The position numbers were made by a program, and so were the translations under genes. A stretch of DNA of 64,000 nt from Parcubacteria group bacterium GW2011_GWA2_40_143 (GTDB lineage Bacteria > Patescibacteriota > Minisyncoccia > UBA9983), in NCBI GenBank assembly GCA_000996035.1, contig LBYH01000002.1, forward strand, positions 8,979-72,978, in the 5' to 3' direction. Position 1 is the first letter of the stretch. Every line of letters begins with the position of its first letter. The notes below the pieces were generated by a model that saw only the letters and a list, made by a program, of their open reading frames with translations, did no database searches and was not told the DNA's origin. This document shows, piece by piece, positions 134 to 47,190 of the stretch.

Positions 134-2851
134 TCAATACTTTTTTCTTATCTCTTCCTCCACTTCTCTTCTGTCTCTGCCGTATTTAAGCGAAGAAATT
201 TCCGCTACGCCAACGCCGTAAGCCAAGTCTCCTTTCTCAAATGGTGTTGTTTTTACGCTAAACGGCTTTGATATCTGGCCATCTATAAGTATTTTGAGGT
301 AAGCGTTGTAATTATCTATATTCATAATATCATGAGCGCTAAAAGTCGGGCTAAACTGCTTCTCCAAAAATTCGGCATCTTCCGCCCCCACCCTGAAAGC
401 GGCCATTGACCCCACATTGCCAAAAACGGATTTAGAAATACTTTCCTTGAGCTGACTTATAAATTGATGGGCGATTATCAAATTAAGTTTGTACTTTCTG
501 GCTTCAGAGAGAATTGAGGAAATGGAATCAGTGGTAATGTTTTGAAATTCGTCTATATAGAGATAAAAGTCTTTGCGATCTTCTTCCGATATATCTGTGC
601 GCGAAAGAGAAGCCATGAGAATCTTGCCTACCAGAATAAGGCCGAGTAGGCTAGCGTTTAATTCGCCCAACCTGCCTTTGGAGAGATTTACCAAAAGAAT
701 CTTGCCTTCATCCATCACATCTCTTATTTTGAAAGCGGATTTTTCCTGTCCGATTATCGGACGCATAATGTCGTTTGAGAGAAAATTATCAAACTTGGAA
801 GTGATGTACGGCACCATATTGGCTAGAGACGCCTCACCGCCGGCCTTATCGGCCACGTCCCGCCAGAAAGATTTTACTATCGGATTGCTTGCTCTGGAAA
901 GCTTAAATTCTCTAAAATCTTTATCGCTAAGCACTCGGCTTACTTCAAAAAGAGTGTTGCCGGAAGCCGGATCGTCCATTACCAGCAATACCGAATTTCT
1001 GAAATATTGTTCAAACATCGGGCCGCCAGATGTTTTCATATCAAAGAGCTTGTCAAAAATCATTAAAAGTTCGTTTACAATAAAGGTTTTCTGTTCCGGA
1101 AAGCGTGTATCGTACTCAAGCATGTTGAGTCCGAGCGGCCTGTTTACGTTGCCCGGGTCAAAATAGATAACATCGTCAATCCTGTGCTGAGGAATGCGGG
1201 AAAATATATCCTGCAAATCTTGTCCATGCGGATCCATAAAGCATACACCTTTACCGGCTTCTATGTCTTGAATTATCATATTTTTGAGCAGTACGGATTT
1301 ACCGGTGCCGGTTTGACCTATTACATAGAAATGCCTTCGTCTATCTTCGTCTTTTATAAAAACCGGTTTTTCTTCGCCGCGATATATATTTTTGCCAAGC
1401 ATTAAGCCGCTATGAGGCAGATTAAGCGGAGCGGAATGCTCTTTAGCCTTGTTTTGCTTGAGCTGATGAGACACCATGCCGTCTTCCTCAAAAGGCAAAT
1501 GCAAAATACCGGCCAGCTCGGACACATTAAGCTCTATCTCTTCGTCTTTGCTTGGTATCCTGTAAGAAAAATTATGGAAAAATTTTCTTAGTTTACCCCC
1601 TTTTGGTCTTGCAAAGGTTAAAGAATTACCCATCGGCTCGGCAAATTGAGCGAAAGATATTTCCAGCTCTTCCAGCATTTTCCTCGCCCTATCCTCACTC
1701 TCTTTGGCAGACACGGCCAGTCTGAAGTTTACTGGTGAAATTTGCTTTGAAGATTTAAATTCAAGGAGTTTAATGGTTTGCTCGTCTGCCGGATTTTTTT
1801 CTTCCGGCGCGTCTTTGCGTTTTTGCTTGCCTGAACCGAGAATAAGGTCGCTTATTACTCCAATAAAACCGCCGCCATTGCCGACAGCGGCGCTGAATGA
1901 TTCTCCCTTGCGCATCTCATGGATAACCGAACTTACTTTATAGCTTAGGCCACTTTTGCTCGGCATTACCACCATCTGTAAAGCCGCTCCCTCCCCGTCT
2001 TTTTGGAATTTGGTAAAAGCGTTTAAAACAACTCTCATGGGGTCTATGCCAAAATCATTATAATTCTTCAGCGGTAAAACTGGATTCTTTTTAAACTTTG
2101 CCACTGAGCCAAGCGAAAAGCCTTCCGGTTTAAAAATATTATAATCGCCGGATTTTCTGGTAATTTTAAGATTAGGGAAAACGCCTTGCGCCTGCTTTTC
2201 AAAAATATGGCCATTTTCTTCCGCCACCGCGCAATAGAAAGACACCTCGTCTCCCATAAATGGCAGTCCTATTTCCAAAACATAATAAATATTCATGGCC
2301 GACATGCCGGCATAAAACTGCTCCATGGCCGATATGGCTTTTTTAAAGTCATCTTCTCCACTCCTCATTTCCTTAGGCGCTCCGCTCGGCATGGAAATCT
2401 CATACAAAACAAACTCAAGAGATCGTTTAACCTTCTTGTTGCCAACTTTGGCGCCGGCCAATACTCCATGCAAGCTCTCCACTAAAGAATCATGGAAATC
2501 ATCCTCCAAATGAGGATCCAATCTGGCGGCAACCGTTATCGCGTTTAGAACGCCTTTTTCTCTGGCAAGAGACACCAGTTGAGCCACATGACCAAGATGC
2601 GTTTCTTCAGAAACGCCACCCGATCCGCCGAATATTCTTTCCGACTCGGCAGCCACTTCATCGGAGTGCATTTTATATTCTTCAGCCAAAAGATAATCCG
2701 GCTCTTCTTCGGCATAACCTTTTACGACTTCTCTTACCGCTTCATGGGAAGATTCATCGCCTCCGGCTTTAGACAGCTCAAGATCTTTTACTCTTTTTCT
2801 CAAGTACTCAAGCTCGTCTTCACGAGACATTATTTTAGGCTCTTGTTCCAT
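134..2851 (-). CDS. Type IV coupling protein-like ATPase (VirD4/TraG/TraD family) with a large N-terminal cytoplasmic domain
   Basis: 905 aa. The C-terminal half carries Walker A 'HFYVIGQTGTGKS', 'FMDPHGQD' (TraD-like DPxG box), Walker B 'YLYIDEFQN', and 'IIAHQFISQLKE...FGNVGSMAAFRVG' resembling the VirD4/TraG QS..QL motif. No N-terminal TM helices are evident. Confidence 0.55.
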   Translation of the reverse strand: MEQEPKIMSREDELEYLRKRVKDLELSKAGGDESSHEAVREVVKGYAEEEPDYLLAEEYKMHSDEVAAESERIFGGSGGVSEETHLGHVAQLVSLAREKGVLNAITVAARLDPHLEDDFHDSLVESLHGVLAGAKVGNKKVKRSLEFVLYEISMPSGAPKEMRSGEDDFKKAISAMEQFYAGMSAMNIYYVLEIGLPFMGDEVSFYCAVAEENGHIFEKQAQGVFPNLKITRKSGDYNIFKPEGFSLGSVAKFKKNPVLPLKNYNDFGIDPMRVVLNAFTKFQKDGEGAALQMVVMPSKSGLSYKVSSVIHEMRKGESFSAAVGNGGGFIGVISDLILGSGKQKRKDAPEEKNPADEQTIKLLEFKSSKQISPVNFRLAVSAKESEDRARKMLEELEISFAQFAEPMGNSLTFARPKGGKLRKFFHNFSYRIPSKDEEIELNVSELAGILHLPFEEDGMVSHQLKQNKAKEHSAPLNLPHSGLMLGKNIYRGEEKPVFIKDEDRRRHFYVIGQTGTGKSVLLKNMIIQDIEAGKGVCFMDPHGQDLQDIFSRIPQHRIDDVIYFDPGNVNRPLGLNMLEYDTRFPEQKTFIVNELLMIFDKLFDMKTSGGPMFEQYFRNSVLLVMDDPASGNTLFEVSRVLSDKDFREFKLSRASNPIVKSFWRDVADKAGGEASLANMVPYITSKFDNFLSNDIMRPIIGQEKSAFKIRDVMDEGKILLVNLSKGRLGELNASLLGLILVGKILMASLSRTDISEEDRKDFYLYIDEFQNITTDSISSILSEARKYKLNLIIAHQFISQLKESISKSVFGNVGSMAAFRVGAEDAEFLEKQFSPTFSAHDIMNIDNYNAYLKILIDGQISKPFSVKTTPFEKGDLAYGVGVAEISSLKYGRDRREVEEEIRKKY

Positions 2852-2924
2852 TGCTTAAATAATAGCAAATACCTTGCCTTTTTAAAAGCAAGGTATTTTG
2901 TCTGCCAATATAACCGCTTACGGA

Positions 2925-3125
2925 TTAAGCGGAGACGAATGGCAAGATTCCGATTACTCTGGCTCTTTTTATCGCCGTGGCAAGCTTTCTCTGATGCATG
3001 GCGCAAACGCCAGTCTCCTTCTTGGGAGAAATGCGCGCGTGATGCGAGAGAAAACGCTTTAAGACTTCCGTCTTTTTGTAATCTATCGTCTTTATATTAT
3101 TTGTACAAAAATAACACTGTTTCAT
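2925..3125 (-). CDS. rpsR: 30S ribosomal protein S18
   Basis: 66 aa; 'CYFC...IDYK..LKRFLS...ISPKKETGVCAMHQRKLATAIKRARVIGILPF' is the S18 signature. Sits directly downstream of ssb. Confidence 0.9.
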   Translation of the reverse strand: MKQCYFCTNNIKTIDYKKTEVLKRFLSHHARISPKKETGVCAMHQRKLATAIKRARVIGILPFVSA

Positions 3126-3127
3126 AA

Positions 3128-3577
3128 TTAAAATGGTATATCGTCAGGATTTATTTCTTCTTCCGGATATTCTATGGTTTCAAGTTCCTCAGCCTTCTGC
3201 GGTGTTCCGCCGGAAGCGGCGCCGCCGCCTTGAACGGAATCGCCACCCTGCTTCCTTGGACCAAACTGCACGCGTTCAGCCACAATCTCGGTACGGCTTT
3301 TCTTGGAGCCGTCTTGAGCGTTCCAGTTTCTGGTTTGTATCCTGCCTTCCACCAATACGGAATTGCCCTTTTTAAGATATTGGACTACTGAGTCGGCCTG
3401 CTTGCCAAACACCACCACGTTATGGAATTGGACTTCCTCTTTTTTCTGGCCTTGCTGGTCCCGCCAAACCCTATTGGTGGCTACGCTAAAAGATGCCACC
3501 GAAGCTCCGGACGGCAGAGATCTTGATTCCGGATCTCTGGTAAGATTGCCTATTATAAATGCTTTGTTTAAGTTCAT
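3128..3577 (-). CDS. ssb: Single-stranded DNA-binding protein
   Basis: 149 aa; OB fold 'FIIGNLTRDPE...VASFSVATN', Gly-rich linker, acidic C-terminal tail ending 'DDIPF'. Confidence 0.9.
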   Translation of the reverse strand: MNLNKAFIIGNLTRDPESRSLPSGASVASFSVATNRVWRDQQGQKKEEVQFHNVVVFGKQADSVVQYLKKGNSVLVEGRIQTRNWNAQDGSKKSRTEIVAERVQFGPRKQGGDSVQGGGAASGGTPQKAEELETIEYPEEEINPDDIPF

Positions 3578-3584
3578 GTTAATT

Positions 3585-4034
3585 TTATTTATTTAACATT
3601 TCTTCTAATTTTTCATCTATTTGCTCAGGTTTGATGTCCTCTTTTTCTTCTTTAACCGTCTGAGTTGAGCGCTTGGAAGATGACTGGGCTGACTGAGGAG
3701 TTTTGTCGTTAGTAACATCAGTAATCATGTGCCTTATGATTTTATCATTCAAATCAATAGCCTTTTTTATGCTTTCCACTGAAGACGGGTTTACGTAAAA
3801 CTTCATCCAACAGAAATAAGCGCTATCAAAATCGCTTGACTTGGAGCCGCTTTTGAGCTTCATGGGATACGAAAGCTTTTGCATTTTTGCCGGCTCTTCG
3901 CCCATGATAAAACCGCCATTTTTCTCAATAATTTCTCTCAAAACAGCAACATCCTCGCCGACTTTGTCTTCGGGAGTGAGAGGGTTGATAAGAAAACTTA
4001 TCTCGTATATTTTCTGATCCGGATTTATTGCCAT
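3585..4034 (-). CDS. rpsF: 30S ribosomal protein S6 (start assumed at internal Met 'MAINPDQKIYEISFLINP')
   Basis: S6-like N-terminus 'YEISFLINP' in the classical rpsF-ssb-rpsR arrangement. The track ORF (3585..4100) extends 22 aa further upstream; the internal start is inferred. Confidence 0.75.
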   Translation of the reverse strand: MAINPDQKIYEISFLINPLTPEDKVGEDVAVLREIIEKNGGFIMGEEPAKMQKLSYPMKLKSGSKSSDFDSAYFCWMKFYVNPSSVESIKKAIDLNDKIIRHMITDVTNDKTPQSAQSSSKRSTQTVKEEKEDIKPEQIDEKLEEMLNK

Positions 4035-4078
4035 TGATGGTATCCTATCATAAAAATCTCTAAATGCAAGCTTTTTGG

Positions 4079-5311
4079 TTATTTTAAAATTAGCGACCAA
4101 AGGATGCCGGTGGCCTTATCCACAAATATCAGATATTCACCGTTTTCGCTCAAAGACAGGTTTATGGCGTCAAACCCCAAATCTTTATACAAAAGCGCGG
4201 TGGATCCATCCGTAAAATCCTTCTTCCAAAGCGAATCATTGAAAGACACTTCTCCGCTGTACCACTCATCCGGATAATCGGCTTTGGGCAGAGATTTTGG
4301 CGCGGCGCAATAAATGGTTTTTGAGCTTGCGCCCCAAACGCATTTCTCCGGCAAGGTGTTAAAATCAAATTCAGGAGAAGAGTTGCTCGCGGTATCAAGT
4401 ATTCTCGTATTAAAATTACCGCTGCGGCTGTCACTCGCGCTGTATATAATCTTTGAAGCGTCGGGAGAAACTCTGGCCGTAAGGCCTTTTATTCCGCCCA
4501 AAATTCTTTCAAATTTTTCCGTTCTCTGGTTTAGAAAATAGAGATACCCGTCAGCCATGGCCGCCGGCTTGGTGATAAGAGTGATAATATCTCTGCTTGG
4601 CCATTCGGCGTTAAATTCGCCAAAGTTTAGACTAAAAATACTATTTTTATTTTCATTTTTAAAATTAGCCACGATTCCCTGATGTTCACCATCGGCAAGG
4701 ATAAGATAAAACACTTTATCCTCCACCGGCGACACGGCAGCCGCCTTGATGCCGGACGGCAAGAAAACTCCGCCAAGCTCTTTCGGCTCCCCAGATAAGC
4801 CGCTCAGATCGGCCAAAAAGTTTTTTACACTCCGTTCCGCCGCGGCGCCGGCTTCCTCAAAATATTTTATAAGAACTTTATTTGCTTTACTTGTCCAAAA
4901 CGTTTCAAAGCTTTTAAGTATAGTAGTATTGGTAAGGCGTTTTCTATTTTTGCCGGAATAGCCTACTTCGTAAACATTACCGGTGCTTCTTTCCATATAT
5001 CTTAAGGTGGTGCTGGAAACAGGCGCCGCCCCGCTTACTAAATCCTCCGTAAGCTGTATGAGCTGGCCTTTTTTAACAGGCGTATCTTGTCCGTCTTGAT
5101 CCACAAATCTGCCGGAACCGGTGCCGCCGCCGGGCTTAACGCTTGTTCTATCTTCTCCGCCGGAAGGAAATGGAGTGATACCGCCTTCGCTGCCACCAAC
5201 ATCAATCGGTGTCTTAAAAGTGTTTTGCCTTAGGAAAACAAAGAAGCCAAACCCCGCGAGAGCGAAGATTATTGCCGTTATTAAGATTATAAAAATTTCT
5301 TTTTTAGACAT
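4079..5311 (-). CDS. Secreted/membrane-anchored hypothetical protein, beta-propeller-like
   Basis: 410 aa; N-terminal TM/signal 'IFIILITAIIFALAGFGFFVFL'; the C-terminal half has a TolB/WD40-like repeat character. Part of the T4SS-like cluster. Confidence 0.4.
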   Translation of the reverse strand: MSKKEIFIILITAIIFALAGFGFFVFLRQNTFKTPIDVGGSEGGITPFPSGGEDRTSVKPGGGTGSGRFVDQDGQDTPVKKGQLIQLTEDLVSGAAPVSSTTLRYMERSTGNVYEVGYSGKNRKRLTNTTILKSFETFWTSKANKVLIKYFEEAGAAAERSVKNFLADLSGLSGEPKELGGVFLPSGIKAAAVSPVEDKVFYLILADGEHQGIVANFKNENKNSIFSLNFGEFNAEWPSRDIITLITKPAAMADGYLYFLNQRTEKFERILGGIKGLTARVSPDASKIIYSASDSRSGNFNTRILDTASNSSPEFDFNTLPEKCVWGASSKTIYCAAPKSLPKADYPDEWYSGEVSFNDSLWKKDFTDGSTALLYKDLGFDAINLSLSENGEYLIFVDKATGILWSLILK

Positions 5312-5339: not shown

Positions 5340-5966
5340 TTAACTTCCATCCCAACCTTCAAGCTCTCCGGCCGGACTTTCATCATATGTATTATAACTT
5401 CCATCCTCATTTAGAATCTTTCCAGCTGAACCTTCATCGCGATCAATAATAACTTCATTTTTACCATCACCGCTATCGCTTCCACTAGTACTGCTACTAT
5501 CACCAGTACCGCTGCTGCTGGTGCTACTACTGTCGCTGCTATCACTACTACTCGTAACTTCATAATTTTCAAGAGTGTCAATGAATTTAAAGCTTACCAA
5601 TTGAGGGTTTATGGTATAAAGAAGAAGAAACGACGCAAAAGCCAAAAGCAACCCCCAAAGCGCGTTATTGATACGTTCTTTTGCTTTGGTCATTTGACTC
5701 TCGTTGCCACCGCTTGCCATATAGATAATACCGCCAACGGTTATCATCAGCACTGCCAAAAAACCTGCCATAGCCAAAGCAAATTTAAAAATCCAGCCCA
5801 AATATTCTGACAATGTTACATCGTCGCCATCACCGGCGGAAGGGAGTGACTCAAGCAGTGTATATTTCGGTTGAGAAGGCCCAACAAAATCATCATCCGC
5901 GGCCATGGCAAAAAACGGCATTAAACATAAACTTATTAAAATTGTGATAAATATTTTTTTAAACAT
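5340..5966 (-). CDS. Candidate VirB2/TrbC-like pilin with a Ser/Asp-rich C-terminal tail
   Basis: 208 aa; signal peptide 'MFKKIFITILISLCLMPFFAMAAD', then two hydrophobic helices separated by a short polar loop ('WIFKFALAMAGFLAVLMITVGGIIY...NNALWGLLLAFASFLLLY'), then a poly-Ser/Asp tail. Topology matches conjugative pilins. Confidence 0.35.
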   Translation of the reverse strand: MFKKIFITILISLCLMPFFAMAADDDFVGPSQPKYTLLESLPSAGDGDDVTLSEYLGWIFKFALAMAGFLAVLMITVGGIIYMASGGNESQMTKAKERINNALWGLLLAFASFLLLYTINPQLVSFKFIDTLENYEVTSSSDSSDSSSTSSSGTGDSSSTSGSDSGDGKNEVIIDRDEGSAGKILNEDGSYNTYDESPAGELEGWDGS

Positions 5967-7389: not shown

Positions 7390-9210
7390 TCAACCCTGCG
7401 CCATTTTAAATTCCTCCTTGGCCTTTTTTATAGCCAAAAGCTGAGCCGGATCGGAAGTAATAATCTGATCTTCAGTATAAGAAGCCAGTATCTTAATGGC
7501 CACGTGTTTTAAACCGGCAAAGAAGATTCCCTCGCCCACGTCAGACTCAAGCAAGAGGAACTTTTCTTCATCGGTAAGATTAAACGTTTTTTGCACGAGA
7601 TCTATGGTGGCCGGCGATTGCTTGAGAAGAATCTGAATGGAAGAGTTGGTGATAATCGGCACGCCATAAGGAGAATTAAGAAAGTCGCCCACGTCTTGAG
7701 TGATAGTGGCCAAACCAAGATAATATTTTCTGCCTCTTTTGGCCAAACCAAGAAGGAAGGAAGCCGTATCCTCGCTCTTCATCATCCACCACGCCTCATC
7801 TATCACCAACAACCTTTTTTTAATTTCTTTTCTTACTGAATTCCATATAAAATGAGTTACCAAATACATAGCGATTGGTCGCAATTCCGTTTCCATATCT
7901 CTGATGGAAAATACCACCAGTTTTTTATTTATATCCACGTTAGTGGGCTGATTGATAAAACCGGCCCACGTGCCTCTGATATATTTTGCCATTTTTTGCG
8001 TAAGAGACTCGGCGCCTTGCATGCCGGCAAGCACCAGCTCAAGATCAGTAAGCGTGGGCGCGGATATTTTAGAAAAATCGCTGTCCGGCGTAATGTCTTT
8101 AGCGGCGTAAGTTTCCGTAATGGCTCTGTCTATAATGGAATCTTCTTCCGGCGTAAGACCACCAAGCATGAGCCTAAAAAGACCCACCAAAGAAATAATA
8201 TTTGAGCGCAGCACATCGTCCGGCGACTCGTCTTCTCTTACCGGCGGCAGGTCAAATGGATTTATATGATGGTTGGATGTAAGAGAGATATTAAAATATC
8301 TGCCACCCACGGCTTCAGCCAAATACTCGTATTCTCTTTCCGGGTCTATTATCAAAACCTCCGTATCAAACATAAGCGACCGCAGAATCTCCAGCTTCAT
8401 GGCGTAAGATTTGCCGCTGCCGGCTTTGGCAAAAACCACGGAATTGTAATTTTCAAGAGAAAATCTGTCAAAAAGCACGAGACTGTTATTGTGCCTGTTT
8501 ATGCCATAGAGGATGCCTTTATCGGAAGATAGATCAAAAGAAACAAACGGGAAAAGACTTGAGACCGGCGAAGAATTGAGTTGCGTGCCAATATCCAACT
8601 TGTCGGTGCCGAGCGGAAAAACGGTTTCAATGCCCTCCTGTTGTTGGAAGAGGCTTGGTTTAAGGTAAACAAGTTTGGACTCAAGAATAGATTTGATTTC
8701 TCTCTCGGTTTGATTAAGTTCGTCCACATTGTCAGCATATATCGTAATATACAACCCCACGTTAAACAGCTTTTCTTGAGCCTGTTGAAGTTTATCTCTT
8801 AAATCTTCAAGATCCTGATGAGCGGTATCAAGCATAGGATCGCGCACAAAACCTTTTTCTTCTCTTATGCTTATTTGCGATTGCACCTCAGCCACCTTCC
8901 TCTGGAGCTGTCTGAGCACTGTGGCCGTATCTACAGGATGCACGAAAATGGAAATGTCAAAAACCTTATCCAAATTTATAATCGGCGCGAACCAGTTCAT
9001 AGACAAGTATCTGGGATAAGACATCGCGAAAAGAACTCTGGCCACTTTCTCGCCAAGCTTAATATGATTTGAGTTTATTTGAAGCGCTGAAGGAGCGATA
9101 ATATCTTGCAACCGCAAAATACCGGCATTATATATCTCATGCGGAATAACCGGCGTTACTTCGTTTTGCCCACTGATGCTGTCTCTTTTTTTAAATAATC
9201 CTTCTAACAT
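7390..9210 (-). CDS. VirB4/TrbE/CagE-family conjugal transfer ATPase, C-terminal 606-aa portion
   Basis: Walker A 'VVFAKAGSGKSYAMKLE', 'LIIDPEREY', Walker B 'LLVIDEAWWMM', 'ITQDVGD'. In the same frame as the upstream 213-aa ORF, separated from it only by a TAA. Confidence 0.8.
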   Translation of the reverse strand: MLEGLFKKRDSISGQNEVTPVIPHEIYNAGILRLQDIIAPSALQINSNHIKLGEKVARVLFAMSYPRYLSMNWFAPIINLDKVFDISIFVHPVDTATVLRQLQRKVAEVQSQISIREEKGFVRDPMLDTAHQDLEDLRDKLQQAQEKLFNVGLYITIYADNVDELNQTEREIKSILESKLVYLKPSLFQQQEGIETVFPLGTDKLDIGTQLNSSPVSSLFPFVSFDLSSDKGILYGINRHNNSLVLFDRFSLENYNSVVFAKAGSGKSYAMKLEILRSLMFDTEVLIIDPEREYEYLAEAVGGRYFNISLTSNHHINPFDLPPVREDESPDDVLRSNIISLVGLFRLMLGGLTPEEDSIIDRAITETYAAKDITPDSDFSKISAPTLTDLELVLAGMQGAESLTQKMAKYIRGTWAGFINQPTNVDINKKLVVFSIRDMETELRPIAMYLVTHFIWNSVRKEIKKRLLVIDEAWWMMKSEDTASFLLGLAKRGRKYYLGLATITQDVGDFLNSPYGVPIITNSSIQILLKQSPATIDLVQKTFNLTDEEKFLLLESDVGEGIFFAGLKHVAIKILASYTEDQIITSDPAQLLAIKKAKEEFKMAQG

Positions 9211-9225
9211 GGTAACTTGATGAAC

Positions 9226-9867
9226 TTATCTATTCGCCACTCCTTTGCCACTTTCCCCCGGATTATACAGCTCGTAGAAAAGCTCTATAAGCTCTTCCGT
9301 ATTAAGTGGAGCCACTCTTATACCGGCGCGCGCCAGACCTTGTTGCACCACATCCGATCTCTGCTGAAGCTGGATTTTATACTGCTCAAACTTCTCGCCC
9401 ATGGAACCGCTTTTACCGTCACCGGCAATGCCTCCAAACAATTTGCCAAAGCTTCCCTTTTTGACTTCTATGGATACGTTGGTGTATGGCACGGTAATAT
9501 AGAAGGTCTTAGACATCACATTGGTAACTTGCACAAAATTTTTTACGAATTCAGCGTACTCTTTGGTCTGAATCCGCAAAAGCTCATTATCATGACTTTT
9601 TTCCGCTTCGCTTAAAATAGCCAAGTAGGGACCTATATCCAATTTTCTGGATTGAATAAAAAATTGCACCGGAAAATCAAGGGAGTTTAAAAAGTTTTGA
9701 TACTGAAGCACGATGGCGCTCTGTTCTTCTTCAGATTTAAGGGCGAAGTTCAAAGTGGAAGCCATAAGAATCATTCTTAAAGAATTATCTTTAAGAATGA
9801 TTACGCCGTCTCTTATTTCCTTTATCGGCACGAACTCTTGCGTTGATTTTGATGATACCGGTGACAT
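9226..9867 (-). CDS. VirB4 N-terminal domain fragment (Gram-positive TcpF/PrgJ/Orf16-type N-terminus)
   Basis: 213 aa; 'FVPIKEIRDGVIILKDNSLRMILMASTLNFALKSEEEQSAIVLQYQNFLNSLDFPVQFFIQSRKLDI' matches the conserved N-terminal region of Firmicutes-type VirB4. Ends in TAA at 9226-9228, in frame with the next ORF. Confidence 0.65.
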   Translation of the reverse strand: MSPVSSKSTQEFVPIKEIRDGVIILKDNSLRMILMASTLNFALKSEEEQSAIVLQYQNFLNSLDFPVQFFIQSRKLDIGPYLAILSEAEKSHDNELLRIQTKEYAEFVKNFVQVTNVMSKTFYITVPYTNVSIEVKKGSFGKLFGGIAGDGKSGSMGEKFEQYKIQLQQRSDVVQQGLARAGIRVAPLNTEELIELFYELYNPGESGKGVANR

Positions 9868-9891: not shown

Positions 9892-10311
9892 TTATTTTAT
9901 CTTACTTTTTATATCCAAACTCCAAGAAAGATCTTTGAGTCGGCTCTTGGTGAGCTTGGGAATAAATTCCTCTTGCATTACTCCTTCTCTTTGCCGTCTC
10001 GCGTCGCTAACGGTAAAACTGGCGGTTTTCATTTTTTCCTTTTTCCAGAGATATATTTTCGGCGAAGCGTAATATTTAAGACCATGCTCCACAATTTTTA
10101 TAAATGGCTGATTGTTTACTTTGTAAAATGCCAACGCTATCACGAAACCGCCTATCGGCAGACCCAAAAAAACCACCACCGGAAATGGCAAAACCACGTA
10201 AAGAAGGAAAATAAGACCCGCGCCGCCGGCAAGGTAAACAAACTGTTTCCATGTAAGCGGCCCAAAAAGCTTACTCTCAATTTCTATAAATTGTGGAACT
10301 TGAAAACGCAT
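9892..10311 (-). CDS. PrgI/TcpE (VirB3-like) small membrane protein
   Basis: 139 aa; two adjacent TM helices 'FVYLAGGAGLIFLLYVVLPFPVVVFLGLPIGGFVIALAF'; sits immediately upstream of VirB4 as in Gram-positive T4SS. Confidence 0.5.
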   Translation of the reverse strand: MRFQVPQFIEIESKLFGPLTWKQFVYLAGGAGLIFLLYVVLPFPVVVFLGLPIGGFVIALAFYKVNNQPFIKIVEHGLKYYASPKIYLWKKEKMKTASFTVSDARRQREGVMQEEFIPKLTKSRLKDLSWSLDIKSKIK

Positions 10312-10315: not shown

Positions 10316-10960
10316 TTAATTTATCGGTTCACGATAAGGGTCTGCGTCGCCGTAACCCTTGCCATTTTCTAAGGGCGAGGAGGTCTTCGGTTCTACTTCT
10401 TCAGGCTTTTTATATTCCGCCACCTCCTTCGGCGCCCTGTATACGTCATCTTTGAGCTTGGCCTCAAACGGATTGGTAACGCCTTTAAAAATGTCCGGCA
10501 TTTTTTCTTCCTCATTTTTTACAGGCAAAGACGGCGCGGGAACATCTTCTTTTTCTATTTCTTTAAGTATATCACTTTTTGCGTCAGAAACAGCGGCAAC
10601 GATCCCCTCGCCATCGTCAAACGCGTCTTTATCGTCTCTTAAATTATGCACTCGTCGCAAAGAGTCTCTCACCTTCTTAAATATCCGCTCATTCACATCC
10701 GAGGCTATTTCTCCGGCTTTGGTTTTGTCAATTTCCAGCAGCTTGACTAGATTGGAGACAAACTCGCTTGACATGGTAACACCAAGCATTACCATGCCAG
10801 TTTCATTTCCAAGATTGCCGATTTTATCTATATTTAAATTATATTTTTTCCCAATCTTAACAATTTCTTCATCGGTTTCTATACTAAAAATAGCCGATCT
10901 TAAATCCTCCGGCAGATTGGAGTAAATATTTTCTATTTCTTGATCCGAATATTCTTTCAT
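10316..10960 (-). CDS. Acidic cytoplasmic hypothetical protein
   Basis: 214 aa, no TM segments, D/E-rich; adjacent genes are only 5 nt apart (10311/10316). Confidence 0.4.
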   Translation of the reverse strand: MKEYSDQEIENIYSNLPEDLRSAIFSIETDEEIVKIGKKYNLNIDKIGNLGNETGMVMLGVTMSSEFVSNLVKLLEIDKTKAGEIASDVNERIFKKVRDSLRRVHNLRDDKDAFDDGEGIVAAVSDAKSDILKEIEKEDVPAPSLPVKNEEEKMPDIFKGVTNPFEAKLKDDVYRAPKEVAEYKKPEEVEPKTSSPLENGKGYGDADPYREPIN

Positions 10961-10986
10961 GTTTTTTAAAAAATTATTTTTAAATA

Positions 10987-13077
10987 TTATAGCTTCTTGG
11001 AACCTCCGCCGCCACCACTTGAACCTATAGCGCCCTGAAGACCTTCTGTTTCTTTTCTTCTTTCTTCTTTATCTTCCAACTCCTTTTTCCTTGTTTCTTC
11101 TTTTTCAATTTGTTTTATATATCCTTCTCTTATCTTCTTTTCCGCATTTTTCTTTAATCTTGCTTGCTTAGTATCGTCAATGGCCTTTATGGCCGACGCT
11201 TCTCCGTCTGTGTCTCCATCATTTATTGCCTTAGACAGTTTGTAATTTTGAGTAACAAGTTTTGTTTCAAGCCCTTCCAAAACTTCTTCATTTTTTTCTA
11301 TTTCTTCTTTTAATTTATCTTTGGCAATACTTGCGTTAGACTGCACGGCTTTTAGATTCTTCAGCTCTTCTTTTTCTGATTCTATCCTTTTCTTCTTTTC
11401 TGTTTCAGCTGATCTTTTCGTTTCAATTCCTTCAATCGTTTTAGAAGCCGATTTTGTGAACACTTGCCCCTTCATCGCCGTTAAACCGGCATCACTGTAT
11501 GAACCAAATTTTTCCTTTCTTGATTTTTCTTCAGCCTTAAGTTGCTTCTCCCTCCATGTTGAAGCGCGAGCAAAGCCGCTGTTTACAAGAGGGATGGCTC
11601 CTATTATTTTGCCGAATTTGTTTTGTTTGCCGTCTTTATCCAATTGAGATCTGAGTAGACCCTCTCCGGCTAATCCAGCGGTTCTTTTTGCACCATATGT
11701 ACCCCATCTCATCGCCGCTCTGTCGCCAAATTTATTTCTCGCGAAATCGCCGGCTTGCTTGCCATACTTCATCGCCATGTCCGATCCGATCGCTCCCATC
11801 TGCTTGGCGACATATAAAGCCATTATCATAAGAAACGCAACCACCATAAAATGGAAAATCACTATGAGAGTTTCATCCACGTTAAATGGAAGAAATGAGC
11901 TGGCCGCGCTTTTTTCTGCGGCTATGATGGTTCCTTTCAAAAAATTGCTGTTTATAATCTCTGTTACTATTAAAAGCATAAAGAGATACGCGGGAGCGAA
12001 AAAAGATTGCCTTATTAAGGTATCCCACCATTTGCCGGCATGAGCCGCCAGCGCTTTTGGCATAATTGGCAAGATAAAACCAAGCGGCGCGAAAATCATA
12101 AGTATCCAAAGCACAACTACTCTTATAATAAAGAGGGCCGCGCTGGCAAAAAAGATAAAACCGGCAATAAAGTTAAGAGTGGCTGAGAGGATATACAAAA
12201 CTGACATCTGCATAAAAGTAACCGGCAATATTTCTTTTCCTTCCTCTACAGCTTCCATCAATTTCTCTTGATTGCTTTTTTTGGTTTCATCTTCCTCCGG
12301 CGCGCCAAACCACGCATTTTTAAATTCGCCAGCAAACAAAGACTTGCCTGTGTATTTCACAGATTCCAATAAATTTGTCCAACTTGACCATGTCCGATAG
12401 CTACCGGCTGTAACATCTGCCACACCCGTTCCAACAATTACAGCTGAGGAAATAACCTTAGCAACCCCGTCTTTTTTTATATCAACAATCTGAACAGCGC
12501 CGGGAATTTGCGGAAATTTAGCTTGCCCTTGCGTGTCTATTTTGTTGTAAAAACTCCATGCCAATACATGCGAAGCGTCAATAATCATTCTGGCAAACAA
12601 AAGGCTAAAATTTATAAGCACTGCCACCACTATAACTTTTACAAGCAATTCCTTGCCTCCGTAGGTGCCTATCTGCAAAATAGTGGCAATGGCGATATAT
12701 AAAATAATGAAGATAAAAAACAGATTGGCAAAATCTCTCATAAGCTTCCAGCCTTCCTCTATAATTCCTGCTTCAAATATGCTTCCTGAAATGCTAAAAA
12801 GCATCGCTCCGTCAAAAATCTCTCCGCCGGCCCACGTTACGAAAGTTGAAAGATAATGTATAAACTGAGTTATATAGTATATACCTGCTGTTATGCATCC
12901 CCAGACGGCAGTTACTCCACAGACACCTTCAATGTGCATAACAGTTTCATCGCTTGCCGTCTCCTCCGCGTAAGCAACGCCAATAACGCCAATTTGCGAT
13001 ATAGCCGGCGCGGAAGTCTGAAAAATGGTTACCGCCAGTATCAGACACAATATTATTTTTTTTATTTTACTTATCAT
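10987..13077 (-). CDS. VirB6/TrbL-like polytopic membrane protein with a C-terminal charged coiled-coil tail
   Basis: 696 aa; at least seven hydrophobic helices followed by a K/E-rich coiled-coil C-terminus and a poly-Gly end. Position and topology are consistent with VirB6-family channel proteins. Confidence 0.4.
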   Translation of the reverse strand: MISKIKKIILCLILAVTIFQTSAPAISQIGVIGVAYAEETASDETVMHIEGVCGVTAVWGCITAGIYYITQFIHYLSTFVTWAGGEIFDGAMLFSISGSIFEAGIIEEGWKLMRDFANLFFIFIILYIAIATILQIGTYGGKELLVKVIVVAVLINFSLLFARMIIDASHVLAWSFYNKIDTQGQAKFPQIPGAVQIVDIKKDGVAKVISSAVIVGTGVADVTAGSYRTWSSWTNLLESVKYTGKSLFAGEFKNAWFGAPEEDETKKSNQEKLMEAVEEGKEILPVTFMQMSVLYILSATLNFIAGFIFFASAALFIIRVVVLWILMIFAPLGFILPIMPKALAAHAGKWWDTLIRQSFFAPAYLFMLLIVTEIINSNFLKGTIIAAEKSAASSFLPFNVDETLIVIFHFMVVAFLMIMALYVAKQMGAIGSDMAMKYGKQAGDFARNKFGDRAAMRWGTYGAKRTAGLAGEGLLRSQLDKDGKQNKFGKIIGAIPLVNSGFARASTWREKQLKAEEKSRKEKFGSYSDAGLTAMKGQVFTKSASKTIEGIETKRSAETEKKKRIESEKEELKNLKAVQSNASIAKDKLKEEIEKNEEVLEGLETKLVTQNYKLSKAINDGDTDGEASAIKAIDDTKQARLKKNAEKKIREGYIKQIEKEETRKKELEDKEERRKETEGLQGAIGSSGGGGGSKKL

Positions 13078-13097
13078 TAAGAAACAAAATTAAAAAC

Positions 13098-15704
13098 TTA
13101 AGCATCCGCTAAAATATCTTCGCAATCTTTCGCGTCAACATCTTCGTTGTCTGTATATTTATTCAACACGCAAGTGTATTGCTCAACTTGGTCTTTTGTC
13201 TTATTCTCTTGATTACTCGTGTCTTCGTTTACTTCTTTCGCCTTTTTCTCCCCCTTGGTGGTGTATTCTTTTTTACCAAGAGCGCCTGCTGATATTGTAA
13301 CACTGTCGGAGAATTTTTCCCCATCGGCGTCCTGACAAATAAACTTATAAGACACTTCGTATGAGCTATCGCCTTCTTCTCCTTCAAACTCTATTGTTTC
13401 TTTACCTTTGTAATTGCTCGCGTCAACTTCCAAATAATACCCCTCGCCGACATATTGCCAATTATCTGCGATACCATCTCCATCCGCATCCACTACCTCA
13501 TCATCTTCATCAAGCCTTGTCAGACTGCCGCTTAAGCCTTCCATATAATCTTTTTCTTCCGCGTACAAATAACAGCTTCCCGAAACATTTGAAGCGCTCC
13601 ATCTTAGTTTGGAACTTTTACCGAAAGCCACCTCCGAAGGCGAAGTCGTTATATCCACGGCGGTAACGACTTCAGCGTCATCGTAAGAAGAAATCGCCAC
13701 AGACACGGTATCATAATCTCCGTCTTCGCTATAGCAGGTAATGGAATATTCTCTTTCTTCGCTTTCATATTCTCCGTCTTCATCTTTAATGCCAAAATCT
13801 TTTGTTCGGTAAGAACCGGATGTGCTCTCGCTAAAATCCATATCCCAATCGTTATCACCGGAACCTTCTTCTTTTTCGCAATAATCGGCGCCGGTAGCGT
13901 ACCAATACACGTAAGTGTCTTCTCCATTCTCCACCGCCGTTTCTTTTGCCCAGATATTTACGGCAAATTCTTCCGATCCGCTAATTTCTCCGCAAATATC
14001 GCCTTTTTCTTGATTGGCATTGTAATTCTCATTACTGAAGCAATAATTCTTTTTAATCTCGTTTATTTTCTTTTTTGATTTGGCTTTAAGCACATCATTG
14101 TCAAAATTTTCAAGCACTTCCAGCGCCCACTCGGATATGCCTATGTAATCTTGGCCCCAGTCAGAATCAAAATACTCCCCACCAGACTCAAAATCGCCAA
14201 GCTTGCTTTCCGCTTTGCTAATTTTTTCGTCAATATCTTTTATTTCGCAGGTTATTGTATCATCATCACTATTGTCGTCATCATCACACGATGTCACAGT
14301 TTCAACCTCACCCAAATCAATATACTTAAAAACTTCTATATCATTCAAATCGGTTATATCGCCACTGTCTTCGTCAAGCAAGTCGGCGCAATATTCATTA
14401 TCATTCAAAATATCCCCTCTATTATCTTTGCCATATTGGATGCATTTAAGCTTGTTGGCGATTTCTCCAAGTTTTTCCATTCTTTCCTTCAAGGTACTCT
14501 TCATCTCCTCAAGCGAGTTCTTAAACTTCTTTTCCCACTTGCTCATATTGCCTATCTTTTCAGATAAGTTAAGTTTCGTTGCGTTTGCGTCTTGACTGTC
14601 CTCAAGCGCGCCATATTGATCCCTGTTGCCGGCTCTGTCCGGACTGCTCGTGTAGGCACTCAAGCCTTCTCCGCCAGATCCGCCGGTAACAATCCAGCTT
14701 ACTAATTGGGTGGCCAGCGCGCCGATTATTTCGTCTATTTCATCGGCTACTTGTAATCTACCTTCATCACCGCCGAGGGTTTTATCCAATTTCCCTTGCA
14801 CTATGGCGCCGGGAGTGGTGGTTTTGTACTCAGCACATGTGCTGATGGGAGCAGTGGAGGGAGAAGAAACTGGATCAAAAGCATTATAATTGTTGCCAAG
14901 ACTTGTTGGCTCGCTATACTTCACGCACTGCCTTATACCCAAGAAACCTCTGCCGAGCTGCGCGCCAAATTTTTCTTGCTCTCGGCCTTTTTGCGCTTCT
15001 TTAATGGCGTCGTTGTAGGCCATACCAAATGCTCCGGCTTTATTATTTTTCGGGTTTGATGTAAAAAGCCACATCCCCCAGCCGCCATTTCTAAAATCAC
15101 TACCATATTCTCTTACTATGTTTTCCTGATTTATATTTATATCTATGTCAATCCAATCACTAAAACTCCTACCAAGTCCTTCTTCAAATTTATCTACAAC
15201 ATCTTCAAAAGTACATCTATATTTAGTTTTGCTTGTGCCAGGTAAAAATAGATCTAAACTAAAACTAAACTTTCCAAATGGATCGCATAACCACTCAAGA
15301 TTCAGGTCACTTATAACCGCCCCGCTCAATTGATTGCCAAATTCTCCAAAGAACTGCTCCGGGTTCTCAAGAAACATCGGGCTCCCTTCAAAGCCGCTGT
15401 TTATCCAATCCACTATCTGATCGGTAAATGTGTCTATGAGTACGTTGATAGCCGTCCACGCAAAACCATCAAGGACGTACTCTTTGATTTCAAGTGCCCC
15501 TGCGGAAATAGCTGTAGCAGCACCAGTAACAGCGCTCTCAACAGACGCCCATGCCCCTTGGCTCACGTCAGAATTAACATTTACGGAGTAGGCCTCCGCT
15601 TTTGTCGCATTAAAAGAAAAAGTTGCCGCCAAAAAAACAGCAAACACACTCATTATCCATCTTGTTATTTTTTTATTTTTTTTCCAAAAAAACATTTTAT
15701 TCAA
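13098..15704 (-). CDS. Large secreted acidic surface protein (candidate adhesin/tip protein of the T4SS-like cluster)
   Basis: 868 aa; signal anchor 'WIMSVFAVFLAATFSFNA', highly D/E-rich, scattered Cys. Overlaps the upstream gene by 8 nt. Confidence 0.45.
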   Translation of the reverse strand: MNKMFFWKKNKKITRWIMSVFAVFLAATFSFNATKAEAYSVNVNSDVSQGAWASVESAVTGAATAISAGALEIKEYVLDGFAWTAINVLIDTFTDQIVDWINSGFEGSPMFLENPEQFFGEFGNQLSGAVISDLNLEWLCDPFGKFSFSLDLFLPGTSKTKYRCTFEDVVDKFEEGLGRSFSDWIDIDININQENIVREYGSDFRNGGWGMWLFTSNPKNNKAGAFGMAYNDAIKEAQKGREQEKFGAQLGRGFLGIRQCVKYSEPTSLGNNYNAFDPVSSPSTAPISTCAEYKTTTPGAIVQGKLDKTLGGDEGRLQVADEIDEIIGALATQLVSWIVTGGSGGEGLSAYTSSPDRAGNRDQYGALEDSQDANATKLNLSEKIGNMSKWEKKFKNSLEEMKSTLKERMEKLGEIANKLKCIQYGKDNRGDILNDNEYCADLLDEDSGDITDLNDIEVFKYIDLGEVETVTSCDDDDNSDDDTITCEIKDIDEKISKAESKLGDFESGGEYFDSDWGQDYIGISEWALEVLENFDNDVLKAKSKKKINEIKKNYCFSNENYNANQEKGDICGEISGSEEFAVNIWAKETAVENGEDTYVYWYATGADYCEKEEGSGDNDWDMDFSESTSGSYRTKDFGIKDEDGEYESEEREYSITCYSEDGDYDTVSVAISSYDDAEVVTAVDITTSPSEVAFGKSSKLRWSASNVSGSCYLYAEEKDYMEGLSGSLTRLDEDDEVVDADGDGIADNWQYVGEGYYLEVDASNYKGKETIEFEGEEGDSSYEVSYKFICQDADGEKFSDSVTISAGALGKKEYTTKGEKKAKEVNEDTSNQENKTKDQVEQYTCVLNKYTDNEDVDAKDCEDILADA

Positions 15705-17553: not shown

Positions 17554-17580
17554 TTGCACCAAGGTTAAACCTTGGTGCAA
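17554..17580. repeat. REP-like perfect palindrome TTGCACCAAGGTT-A-AACCTTGGTGCAA (REP copy 1; partial direct copy at 17543-17553)
   Basis: 27-bp self-complementary sequence overlapping the RAYT 3' end; the same sequence recurs at 18235-18290 and 19325-19350. Confidence 0.8.
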
Positions 17581-18230
17581 TAACTTAGCCAAAAATCAAG
17601 ATATTTTCTAAGCTCCAAAGTATCATCAAAATATTCAGGCAGAACGTTTTTATCTATAATCAATCCTTCTTTTCTTTCTAACCCTAAATAATCAATAAAA
17701 CTGGAGTATTTATATTGTTTTAAAAAATCATCGACTTTATCTTTATTAGAAATACCATTTTCTTTCCAGTGAGGATCGACCATTTTTACCGGATTTAGAT
17801 GAATATAAGCTAAAAGATACTTGAGATGATTGTCGTCATTAGCATGAATAGACTTGAAGCTACTTTCAAAAAGCGAGCCTGTTCTCTCATATTTTTTATT
17901 AAAAAACATAGTATAACCAGTCATCATTTTTTGCATAAACTTACTTACTCCACCCTCCCTAATTTCTTGAACTAGTACATGAAAATGATTGGGCATAAGA
18001 CAATAAGCCGATATCTTCACGATATCATCTTCTTTTTTCAAATTTAAAACACCCTCAAGAGTACTATCGCGCAAGTTGCTTATATGGACAGTGTCTTTAT
18101 TGTTGCAGATATACAAAAGAGAAATAAATCTTTCGTAGTCATCCTTTTTCAAAAAAATTTTTCTCTTATCCGTACCTCTTCCGTATAAGTGATAATTTTC
18201 TCCTATTGAAAAATCAATATTTCTAGCCAT
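17565..18230 (-). CDS. IS200/IS605-like Y1 HUH transposase, REP-associated tyrosine transposase (RAYT)-like
   Basis: 221 aa; HUH motif 'YCLMPNHFHVLVQE'; C-terminal 'AYIHLNPVKMVDP' resembling the RAYT catalytic-Tyr region; flanked on both sides by REP-like palindromes. Confidence 0.7.
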   Translation of the reverse strand: MARNIDFSIGENYHLYGRGTDKRKIFLKKDDYERFISLLYICNNKDTVHISNLRDSTLEGVLNLKKEDDIVKISAYCLMPNHFHVLVQEIREGGVSKFMQKMMTGYTMFFNKKYERTGSLFESSFKSIHANDDNHLKYLLAYIHLNPVKMVDPHWKENGISNKDKVDDFLKQYKYSSFIDYLGLERKEGLIIDKNVLPEYFDDTLELRKYLDFWLSYCTKV

Positions 18231-43914: not shown

Positions 43915-44256
43915 TTAAAAAGTTATAATGCCGGCTTTTTTAAAAAGTTTTGTCATTTCTTCTTTAATTTCAGAAAAACCTTTATTTATTGCCGTTTTTT
44001 GGAAAAAGACCACAACCGCCAGACCACCTTTAATATTTCCCATAAGACACTTGGCTGCATATCTTGCCCTTCTTTTAAGCTTATTTCTTGTTGTTGCTTT
44101 TTTTGTAGCGCCGGAAAGCACCACAAAGGTAAAAAGACTATCCTTTTGGCCAATCTTAGATACCTTGAGAAAGATATTATCAGTAGAAAAACGTTTTCCT
44201 GTCTTAATAACTCCTTCTATTAAGTCTTTAGTGAGTCTGTTTTTTTTAGACAACAT
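43915..44256 (-). CDS. rnpA: RNase P protein component
   Basis: 113 aa; 'ATTRNKLKRRARYAAK'. No rpmH found upstream. Confidence 0.85.
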   Translation of the reverse strand: MLSKKNRLTKDLIEGVIKTGKRFSTDNIFLKVSKIGQKDSLFTFVVLSGATKKATTRNKLKRRARYAAKCLMGNIKGGLAVVVFFQKTAINKGFSEIKEEMTKLFKKAGIITF

Positions 44257-44401: not shown

Positions 44402-44469
44402 TTATTCCTAAAAAACTCTTATTTCTCTGATTTTCGTTTTATTCTTATAACTTGTTATAATAAACACAA

Positions 44470-47187: not shown

Positions 47188-47190
47188 AAG

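What the first reader, a model, noticed from the sequence alone, without database searches (positions are those of the whole stretch)
9205..9231. VirB4 ATPase split by a single in-frame TAA
The 213-aa ORF (9226..9867) encodes the conserved N-terminal domain of Firmicutes-type VirB4, and the 606-aa ORF (7390..9210) encodes the rest. They are in the same reading frame and separated only by TAA plus five sense codons (...GVANR*VHQVTM-LEGLF...). Read through, they would give an ~824-aa protein, the normal VirB4 length. The split could be a recent nonsense mutation (pseudogenising the whole T4SS), a sequencing/assembly error, programmed readthrough, or a genuinely split two-chain VirB4.
Basis: seen in the sequence. 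Interest (0 to 1): 0.65.

Follow-up and report, generated by a model that had tools for sequence, protein, structure and literature searches.

The report
Naturally two-gene VirB4 secretion ATPase
The "broken" VirB4 gene is the normal, conserved two-gene form of this secretion motor in Patescibacteria (a small TrsD-like N-terminal protein plus a roughly 600-aa ATPase), already described in the literature, so the in-frame TAA is an ordinary stop codon.

Summary
The sequence observation is correct. On the minus strand a 213-aa ORF (9867..9226) ends in TAA. Fifteen bases later, in the same frame, a 606-aa VirB4-type ATPase ORF starts (9210..7390).

It is not a lesion. All 80 species-level relatives fetched (all Patescibacteria) end the first ORF at the same place. 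In 79 of them the ATPase gene follows:
- Frames differ in 63 of 79.
- Spacers run from -17 to +485 nt.
- All three stop codons are used.

The best 120 database homologues of each half are 207-229 aa and 589-629 aa. Exactly these two proteins occur in at least four independent NCBI records. dN/dS is 0.06 for the small ORF and 0.02 for the ATPase.

The two ORFs tile full-length VirB4 models, and a rare fused 797-aa Colwellbacteria protein, colinearly. The same split point occurs in Bacillota plasmids and in pSK41 TrsD/TrsE.

A 2025 paper (PMC12102498) already reports TrsD, a protein homologous to the VirB4 N-terminus, beside virB4 in most Patescibacteria.

Verdict: a genuine two-chain VirB4. Nonsense mutation, sequencing error and readthrough are rejected. 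The in-frame arrangement is coincidence. Already known, low interest.

The parts
9892..10311 (-). PrgI-family (VirB3-like) small membrane protein, directly upstream of ORF-N
   Evidence: Pfam PF12666 PrgI, E=7.9e-11, 42.8 bits against a cutoff of 27. The same gene order PrgI > small TraC-like protein > ATPase is seen in L086, in C. botulinum pCBG, and as trsC-trsD-trsE in pSK41.
9226..9867 (-). ORF-N: 213-aa TrsD-like / 'TraC-like' protein, the first half of the VirB4 N-terminal domain, ending in a genuine TAA stop (9228..9226)
   Evidence: It matches TraC_F_IV positions 17-174 of 375, CD1110 VirB4 model positions 2-127 of 752, and weakly TrsD NF041427. PF26593 TraC-like is precomputed for the identical protein P0001. 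There are 6886 homologues; the best 120 are 207-229 aa, and 149 of 150 50%-cluster representatives are short. It aligns to residues 2-210 of a fused 797-aa Colwellbacteria VirB4. dN/dS is 0.056-0.068.
9211..9225 (-). 15-nt non-coding intercistronic spacer (GTTCATCAAGTTACC), in frame by coincidence
   Evidence: The spacer is 39 nt in a relative with 95% identity and 38 nt, out of frame, in a relative with 86% identity, while the flanking coding sequence is conserved. Across 79 loci it ranges from -17 to +485 nt. The region has no significant RNA structure (z=0.32).
7390..9210 (-). ORF-C: 606-aa VirB4 ATPase chain, comprising the second half of the N-terminal domain and the RecA-like ATPase domain. 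Walker A is G264-S268 and Walker B is D471-E472.
   Evidence: NCBIfam NF045971 (VirB4-like, CD1110 family) scores 379 bits against a cutoff of 325, covering model positions 185-733. Pfam gives P-loop_TraG, AAA_10 and DUF87. The solved VirB4 ATPase domain 4AG5 matches at E=5.6e-51 over residues 231-585, and TrwK residues 446-733 match residues 256-550. The best 120 homologues are 589-629 aa. The start M-x-L-x-x-[FL]-F-K-K is conserved in 79 loci. dN/dS is 0.018-0.020.
5340..5966 (-). T4SS pilin-like protein (VirB2-like) in the same operon
   Evidence: Pfam PF18895 T4SS_pilin, 31.5 bits against a cutoff of 26.6. NCBIfam Mbov_0395 pilin-like hit is below its cutoff.
134..2851 (-). VirD4-like coupling protein (T4CP), downstream of rpsF-ssb
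   Evidence: Pfam T4SS-DNA_transf, TrwB_AAD_bind and TraG-D_C, all above their cutoffs.
10316..15704 (-). Three upstream co-oriented, tightly spaced ORFs (868, 696 and 214 aa) of unknown family, presumed T4SS operon members
   Evidence: ORF list with spacers of 4-26 nt. No Pfam or NCBIfam family was found. Their membership of the operon is inferred from arrangement only.

Best explanation
These are two ordinary, separately translated genes of a chromosomal Patescibacteria type IV secretion operon. ORF-N is a TrsD-like 213-aa protein that corresponds to the first half of the VirB4 N-terminal domain. ORF-C is a 606-aa chain carrying the second half of that domain and the ATPase domain.

The TAA is a true stop. 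ORF-C is initiated at its own conserved ATG 15 nt downstream. Given the very short spacers, this is probably by coupled or re-initiating ribosomes (inferred).

The two polypeptides are inferred to associate non-covalently and rebuild a complete VirB4 protomer. That protomer would dock on the PrgI/VirB3-like protein at the membrane and power the T4SS. The same frame in this genome is a coincidence.

The gene architecture, its conservation and the selection on it are shown here. The physical assembly of the two chains and the mode of translation initiation are inferred.
For: 1. Conservation of the split. All 80 species-representative loci end ORF-N at the equivalent place (209-238 aa). In 79 of them ORF-C (553-639 aa) follows directly.
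2. The junction behaves as intergenic. The frame differs in 63 of 79 loci, spacers run from -17 to +485 nt (61 of 79 within 0-20 nt, 8 overlapping), and stops are TAA 68, TGA 7, TAG 6. The spacer has indels even among relatives of 86-95% identity, while TAA and both coding flanks are kept.
3. Database lengths. The best 120 homologues of ORF-N are 207-229 aa and those of ORF-C are 589-629 aa. Of the 150 best 50%-cluster representatives for ORF-N, 149 are short.
4. Both halves are under purifying selection, with dN/dS of 0.056-0.068 for ORF-N and 0.018-0.020 for ORF-C.
5. The two ORFs are colinear pieces of one ancestral protein. ORF-N aligns to residues 2-210 and ORF-C to residues 225-796 of a fused 797-aa Colwellbacteria protein. 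They also tile CD1110 VirB4 model positions 2-127 and 185-733. The lengths add up: 213 aa plus about 255 aa before the ATPase domain is close to the 445-aa N-terminal region of TrwK.
6. The same split point occurs elsewhere: Pontibacillus plasmid (274 + 621 aa), C. botulinum pCBG (PrgI, 257 + 620 aa) and pSK41 TrsD (227 aa) + TrsE (672 aa).
7. Literature. TrsD, remotely homologous to the VirB4 N-terminus, is the most abundant T4SS component in Patescibacteria, with 1,664 copies next to virB4, and is essential in S. epibionticum ML1 (PMC12102498).
8. Foldseek places the AF2 model of ORF-N nearest to TrwK/VirB4 chains. The top 13 hits are all TrwK/VirB4, best E=0.015.
Against: - No direct evidence here that the two chains bind each other.
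- ORF-N scores far below the curated TrsD cutoff, 21 bits against 200. hhalign against pSK41 TrsD gives only 5.7% probability.
- No Shine-Dalgarno sequence precedes ORF-C. However, none precedes ORF-N or the homologous genes in this clade either.
Confidence: 0.93

Rival explanations
1. A recent nonsense mutation split a once-continuous virB4 gene and pseudogenised the T4SS.
For: The two ORFs are in frame and only 5 codons apart. Fused versions of about 800 aa exist in Colwellbacteria and in CD1110-type Firmicutes elements.
Against: The stop sits at the equivalent position in 80 of 80 species-level relatives, mostly out of frame. dN/dS is 0.02-0.07 on both parts. The start of ORF-C and the variable C-terminal tail of ORF-N are conserved features of separate proteins.
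Confidence: 0.01
2. A sequencing or assembly error created a false TAA.
For: None beyond the fact that the window is probably a metagenome-assembled genome.
Against: The identical 213-aa and 606-aa proteins occur in at least 4 independent NCBI records and on 21 and 14 contigs from several sources. Relatives of 95% and 86% identity keep the same TAA.
Confidence: 0.01
3. Programmed stop-codon readthrough, or frameshifting in relatives, yields a full-length fused VirB4 as the functional product.
For: The arrangement here is in frame with a short spacer. A natural fusion in Colwellbacteria shows that a fused protein is viable.
Against: The in-frame arrangement is not enriched: 16 of 79 loci against 1/3 expected. 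Spacer length and sequence are not conserved, and some spacers carry insertions, including a whole 23S_rRNA_IVP gene. TAA is the main genuine stop in this window, ending 22 of 36 long ORFs. The junction has no RNA structure (z=0.32), and no conserved slippery site is possible with such variable junctions.
Confidence: 0.03
4. ORF-N is an independent accessory factor, a diverged paralogue of the VirB4 N-terminus with its own role, and not the missing piece of ORF-C.
For: The literature treats TrsD as a separate component of unknown function. In Gracilibacteria the TrsD homologues are reported not to be linked to virB4. Many homologues carry extra C-terminal extensions of up to about 440 aa.
Against: ORF-C lacks the region that ORF-N supplies: model positions 1-184 of CD1110 VirB4 are absent from ORF-C and positions 2-127 are present in ORF-N. 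Both align colinearly, without overlap, to a fused homologue. The genes are adjacent in 79 of 79 loci.
Confidence: 0.04

Closest known systems
TrsD + VirB4 of the Patescibacteria T4SS (Quinonero-Coronel et al. 2025, PMC12102498; essential cluster in Ca. Southlakia epibionticum ML1)
   Same: It has the same phylum and the same gene set: PrgI/VirB3-like protein, TrsD-like protein, VirB4 and a VirB2-like pilin. It is chromosomal and lies near dnaA. The TrsD homologue is adjacent to virB4.
   Different: Nothing substantive differs. The paper calls TrsD a separate component with no assigned function. Here the two genes are shown to tile a full-length VirB4 colinearly.
TrsD (227 aa) / TrsE (672 aa) of Staphylococcus plasmids pSK41 and pGO1 (the NCBIfam name 'TrsD/TraD family' also implies TraD of related Gram-positive plasmids)
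   Same: The gene order is VirB3-like (trsC), then a small protein, then a VirB4 ATPase of about 600-670 aa, with a 14-nt spacer. The split point is the same: ORF-C residue 22 aligns with TrsE residue 14.
   Different: ORF-N is only marginally similar to TrsD: NF041427 scores 21 bits against a cutoff of 200, and hhalign probability is 5.7%. The pSK41 system is a plasmid conjugation system with a relaxase. The system here is chromosomal.
Split VirB4 on Bacillota megaplasmids (Pontibacillus sp. ALD_SL1; C. botulinum pCBG)
   Same: A small 'TraC family' or hypothetical protein of 257-274 aa overlaps by 11 nt a VirB4 of about 620 aa in the CD1110 family, preceded by PrgI. ORF-N is 26-31% identical over more than 90% of its length, and ORF-C is 25-35% identical from residue about 25 onward.
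   Different: These are plasmid-borne in Firmicutes, and their N-proteins are 45-60 aa longer at the N-terminus.
Single-chain VirB4 (CD1110 family of CTn2-type ICEs; TrwK of R388; the fused 797-aa Colwellbacteria protein)
   Same: The domain content and order are the same. The ATPase domain matches the solved VirB4 structures 4AG5 and 7O41.
   Different: In those proteins the domains form one polypeptide. Here they are two, cut in the middle of the N-terminal domain, at about position 175 of the 375-position TraC_F_IV model.

Membership tests
VirB4-type T4SS ATPase (NCBIfam NF045971, CD1110 family) | Whole-protein score above the curated cutoff | tested here: met
   ORF-C scores 379 bits against a cutoff of 325, covering model positions 185-733 of 752.
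VirB4-type T4SS ATPase (NCBIfam NF045971, CD1110 family) | Walker A and Walker B motifs in a RecA-like C-terminal domain homologous to solved VirB4 structures | tested here: met
   GSGKS at residues 264-268 and DE at 471-472 are invariant in alignment A4. 4AG5 matches at E=5.6e-51, and TrwK residues 446-733 also match.
VirB4-type T4SS ATPase (NCBIfam NF045971, CD1110 family) | Complete N-terminal domain on the same polypeptide | tested here: not met
   Model positions 1-184 are missing from ORF-C. Positions 2-127 are matched by the separate ORF-N, and TraC_F_IV is split in the same way.
TrsD/TraD family (NCBIfam NF041427) | Score above the curated cutoff of 200 bits | tested here: not met
   ORF-N scores 21.3 bits (E=2e-4) over positions 13-68 of 201. 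hhalign of A1 against pSK41 TrsD gives 5.7% probability. ORF-N is a distant relative, not a member at the curated threshold.
TrsD/TraD family (NCBIfam NF041427) | Protein of about 200-230 aa encoded between a VirB3-like gene and a short VirB4 gene, with homology to the VirB4 N-terminus | tested here: met
   The gene order is shown. The split point is equivalent. ORF-N matches the N-termini of VirB4 models.
Pfam PF26593 'TraC-like' | Match to the family model | tested here: met
   The hit is precomputed for the identical protein P0001 and for all 120 best homologues. The local Pfam copy did not return this model, so the score itself was not seen.
Patescibacteria MPF_FATA-like T4SS cluster (PMC12102498) | VirB4, TrsD, PrgI/VirB3 and a VirB2-like pilin clustered on the chromosome, often near dnaA, usually without a relaxase | tested here: met
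   VirB4, the TrsD-like protein, PrgI and the pilin are. dnaA and dnaN lie at 44.5-47.2 kb. No relaxase family was seen among the operon ORFs scanned, but not every ORF of the window was scanned.
Patescibacteria MPF_FATA-like T4SS cluster (PMC12102498) | VirB6-like polytopic membrane protein | not tested
   The 696-aa and 868-aa upstream ORFs had no family hit. No profile-profile or transmembrane analysis was done.
Programmed stop-codon readthrough (recoding) | In-frame downstream ORF conserved across relatives, with a conserved stop context or stimulatory RNA structure | tested here: not met
   Only 16 of 79 loci are in frame, spacers vary from -17 to +485 nt, and all three stop codons are used. 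The fold z-score is 0.32.
Pseudogene (recent nonsense mutation) | Stop absent from close relatives, and relaxed selection (dN/dS near 1) on the fragments | tested here: not met
   The stop is present in all relatives. dN/dS is 0.018-0.068.

The most novel reading that the evidence does not exclude
Encoding the first half of the VirB4 N-terminal domain as a separate chain could be functionally meaningful, not neutral. It would let the cell load the VirB3-binding piece at a stoichiometry other than 1:1, for example only on the inner ring of the VirB4 double hexamer, or exchange it. The motor of Patescibacteria and pSK41-type monoderm T4SSs would then be built differently from the single-chain TrwK motor. 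A weaker variant is that, in this genome, occasional readthrough of the in-frame TAA adds a minor fused isoform.
Probability: 0.08. Interest if true: 0.45.

Novelty: already known. Interest (0 to 1): 0.12.

Why it matters
The main value is for annotation. In Patescibacteria, and in some Bacillota plasmids, a virB4 that looks truncated and is preceded by a gene of about 210 aa is the intact native state. Such loci should not be flagged as pseudogenes, frameshifts or recoding candidates.

A minor added point is that the TrsD-like protein, listed in the literature as having no assigned function, is colinear with the first half of the VirB4 N-terminal domain. It has the same split point in Patescibacteria, Bacillota plasmids and pSK41. 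That gives a concrete, testable hypothesis for its role: it completes the VirB4 protomer and contacts VirB3/PrgI. This T4SS is reported to be essential for the epibiotic lifestyle.

Tried and rejected
- A model of the hypothetical readthrough or fused protein could not be made.
- The AF2 model of ORF-C from a shallow alignment of 76-99% identity was poor (mean pLDDT 50.4). No fold search was run on it.
- A PDB sequence search with the ORF-N profile found nothing.
- hhalign of the ORF-N alignment against pSK41 TrsD was weak.
- The Shine-Dalgarno analysis was uninformative, because neither gene nor its homologues carry such a motif in this clade.
- A literature search for the phrase 'split VirB4' found no paper. 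The relevant description is under the name TrsD.
- Alternative genetic code (TAA as sense) was rejected, because TAA ends 22 of 36 long ORFs in the window.
Full report
**Observation.** On the minus strand, ORF-N (9867..9226, 213 aa) ends with TAA at 9228..9226. Fifteen bases follow (9225..9211), and then ORF-C (9210..7390, 606 aa) starts with ATG in the same frame.

Both ORFs are parts of VirB4:
- Pfam TraC_F_IV, the N-terminal domain of TraC/VirB4, is matched at positions 17-174 of 375 by ORF-N and at positions 299-351 by ORF-C. ORF-C then carries P-loop_TraG, AAA_10 and DUF87.
- The NCBIfam full-length VirB4 model NF045971 (CD1110 family) is matched at positions 2-127 by ORF-N and at positions 185-733 by ORF-C. 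ORF-C scores above the curated cutoff, 379 bits against 325.
- The ATPase domain of ORF-C (residues 231-585) matches the solved VirB4 C-terminal domain 4AG5 at E=5.6e-51, and it matches TrwK residues 446-733.
- Walker A (GSGKS, 264-268) and Walker B (DE, 471-472) are invariant among homologues.

**Context.** The genes sit in a co-oriented, tightly packed operon with spacers of 0-28 nt. It contains a PrgI/VirB3-like gene immediately upstream (9892..10311) and a T4SS pilin-like gene (5340..5966). A VirD4-like coupling protein (134..2851) lies beyond rpsF and ssb. dnaA (44470..45852) and dnaN (46081..47187) lie about 30 kb away, at the minimum of the cumulative GC skew. The identical proteins are deposited from Patescibacteria/Parcubacteria MAGs, and the closest named relatives are Candidatus Terrybacteria.

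**Is the split a lesion?** No.
- The best 120 of 6886 homologues of ORF-N, down to 59% identity, are all 207-229 aa.
- Of the 150 best representatives in an exhaustive search of 50% clusters, 149 are short and one is 797 aa.
- The best 120 homologues of ORF-C are all 589-629 aa.

A scan of one genome per GTDB species returned 80 loci, all Patescibacteria. In all 80, ORF-N stops at the equivalent place (209-238 aa). In 79 the ORF-C homologue (553-639 aa) follows; the remaining locus ends at a contig edge. At these junctions:
- The two ORFs are in different frames in 63 of the 79 loci.
- The distance from stop to start ranges from -17 to +485 nt, with 61 of 79 within 0-20 nt and 8 overlapping.
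- The stop codon is TAA in 68 cases, TGA in 7 and TAG in 6.
- The N-terminus of ORF-C (M-[AS]-[LF]-[LF]-D-[FIL]-[FL]-K-K) is conserved.

The tail of ORF-N after ...NPGE is variable in length and sequence, as expected for a real C-terminus.

The two closest relatives retrieved (95% and 86% protein identity) keep the TAA. Their spacers are 39 nt (in frame) and 38 nt (out of frame), against 15 nt here, while the coding flanks are conserved. dN/dS against these two relatives is 0.056 and 0.068 for ORF-N, and 0.018 and 0.020 for ORF-C. The exact 213-aa and 606-aa proteins are present in at least four independent NCBI records and on 21 and 14 contigs.

TAA is the main genuine stop codon in the window, ending 22 of 36 long ORFs. 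The junction RNA has no unusual structure (z=0.32). Together these results reject a recent nonsense mutation, a base-call error, a reassigned codon and programmed readthrough. The in-frame state here is the coincidence expected in about one arrangement in three, and it is not enriched among relatives (16 of 79).

**What it is.** ORF-N and ORF-C are colinear, non-overlapping pieces of a VirB4.
- Against a rare fused 797-aa protein found in three Candidatus Colwellbacteria MAGs, ORF-N aligns to residues 2-210 (41% identity) and ORF-C to residues 225-796 (57% identity).
- The lengths add up. ORF-N (213 aa) plus the roughly 255 residues of ORF-C that precede the ATPase domain is close to the 445-residue N-terminal region of TrwK.
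- The cut therefore lies in the middle of the VirB4 N-terminal domain.

The same cut exists outside Patescibacteria:
- A Pontibacillus megaplasmid has 274 aa + 621 aa ('VirB4-like, CD1110 family'), overlapping by 11 nt.
- C. botulinum pCBG has PrgI, then a 'TraC family' protein of 257 aa, then an ATPase of 620 aa.
- Staphylococcal pSK41 has trsC, trsD (227 aa) and trsE (672 aa) with a 14-nt spacer.

In all three, the alignments to ORF-C begin within the first 14-39 residues of both partners.

**Literature.** Quinonero-Coronel et al. 2025 (PMC12102498) searched 3,035 Patescibacteria genomes and found the following:
- 2,474 VirB4 homologues, forming a clade nested in the monoderm MPF_FATA class.
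- A TrsD homologue that is essential in Ca. S. epibionticum ML1.
- T4SS clusters that often lie near dnaA.

The present locus is a typical example. A recent review (PMC12857230) summarises that VirB4 N-terminal domains join the protomers of each dimer, embed in the membrane and contact VirB3 and VirB8.

**Mechanism.** Shown here: two genes, both under strong purifying selection, always adjacent, which together cover a full VirB4.

Inferred:
- ORF-C is translated from its own ATG. Initiation is probably coupled to termination of ORF-N, given that the typical spacers are 1-12 nt. No Shine-Dalgarno motif precedes ORF-N, ORF-C or their homologues in this clade, so its absence is uninformative.
- The two chains associate to form a complete VirB4 protomer.
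- ORF-N provides the part of the N-terminal domain that contacts the PrgI/VirB3-like protein.

**Membership.**
- ORF-C meets the curated VirB4 (CD1110) threshold and the motif criteria, but fails 'complete N-terminal domain on one chain'.
- ORF-N is below the curated TrsD/TraD cutoff (21 bits against 200). It shares the size, position, split point and VirB4 N-terminal homology of TrsD, and it carries the precomputed Pfam family PF26593 'TraC-like'.
- I therefore file it as a TrsD-like (TraC-like) protein, not as a strict TrsD family member.

**Verdict.** The interpretation as a genuinely split two-chain VirB4 is correct, and the other three interpretations are rejected. The arrangement is the norm for the phylum and is already published. 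Interest is low.

Noticed in passing
window 44470..47187, with the AT-rich stretch at 44000..48000: dnaA (44470..45852) and dnaN (46081..47187) lie at the minimum of the cumulative GC skew, where G+C drops to 0.30. This is probably oriC. The T4SS operon lies about 28-40 kb away and is co-oriented with the leftward replichore, in line with the published remark that Patescibacteria T4SS clusters sit near the origin.
   Followed up: partly
window 134..4100: A VirD4-like coupling protein gene (134..2851) follows rpsF (3585..4100) and ssb (3128..3577) directly downstream of the T4SS operon on the same strand. The published survey found the T4CP near virB4 in only a minority of Patescibacteria.
   Followed up: no
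window 17565..18230: An IS200-like Y1 transposase domain ORF (221 aa) lies between the rRNA adenine dimethylase (ksgA-like) gene and an unassigned 342-aa ORF, just upstream of the T4SS region.
   Followed up: no
L056:2160-2632; L008:6380-6492; L009:1074-1196: In three related genomes the spacer between the TrsD-like gene and virB4 carries an AT-rich imperfect inverted-repeat pair of about 52-58 nt (AAAATGCAAA..TCAAAA). In L056 the repeats flank a 128-aa gene of the 23S_rRNA_IVP family (PF05635, E=1.7e-16). In L008 and L009 only the repeats are present. This looks like a small mobile cassette or MITE-like element that has targeted the same junction.
   Followed up: partly
P0253, P0271, P0272 (Candidatus Colwellbacteria, 797 aa): These are the only fused, full-length versions among the 150 best cluster representatives. 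They come from three MAGs and have a linker of about 15 residues where other lineages have the stop, spacer and start. This is an apparent secondary re-fusion.
   Followed up: partly
Homologues of ORF-N, P0125-P0270: About a third of the more distant ORF-N homologues are 280-443 aa, with the TraC-like region at the N-terminus. They therefore carry C-terminal extensions of unknown nature that are not the ATPase.
   Followed up: no
Plasmid hits of ORF-N: ORF-N homologues also occur on plasmids of Haloplanus (archaea, 4 records) and Miltoncostaea (Actinomycetota). Of the 90 plasmids, 77 are typed 'non-mobilizable', which suggests that T4SS-like clusters with the split VirB4 are under-recognised by plasmid mobility typing.
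   Followed up: no
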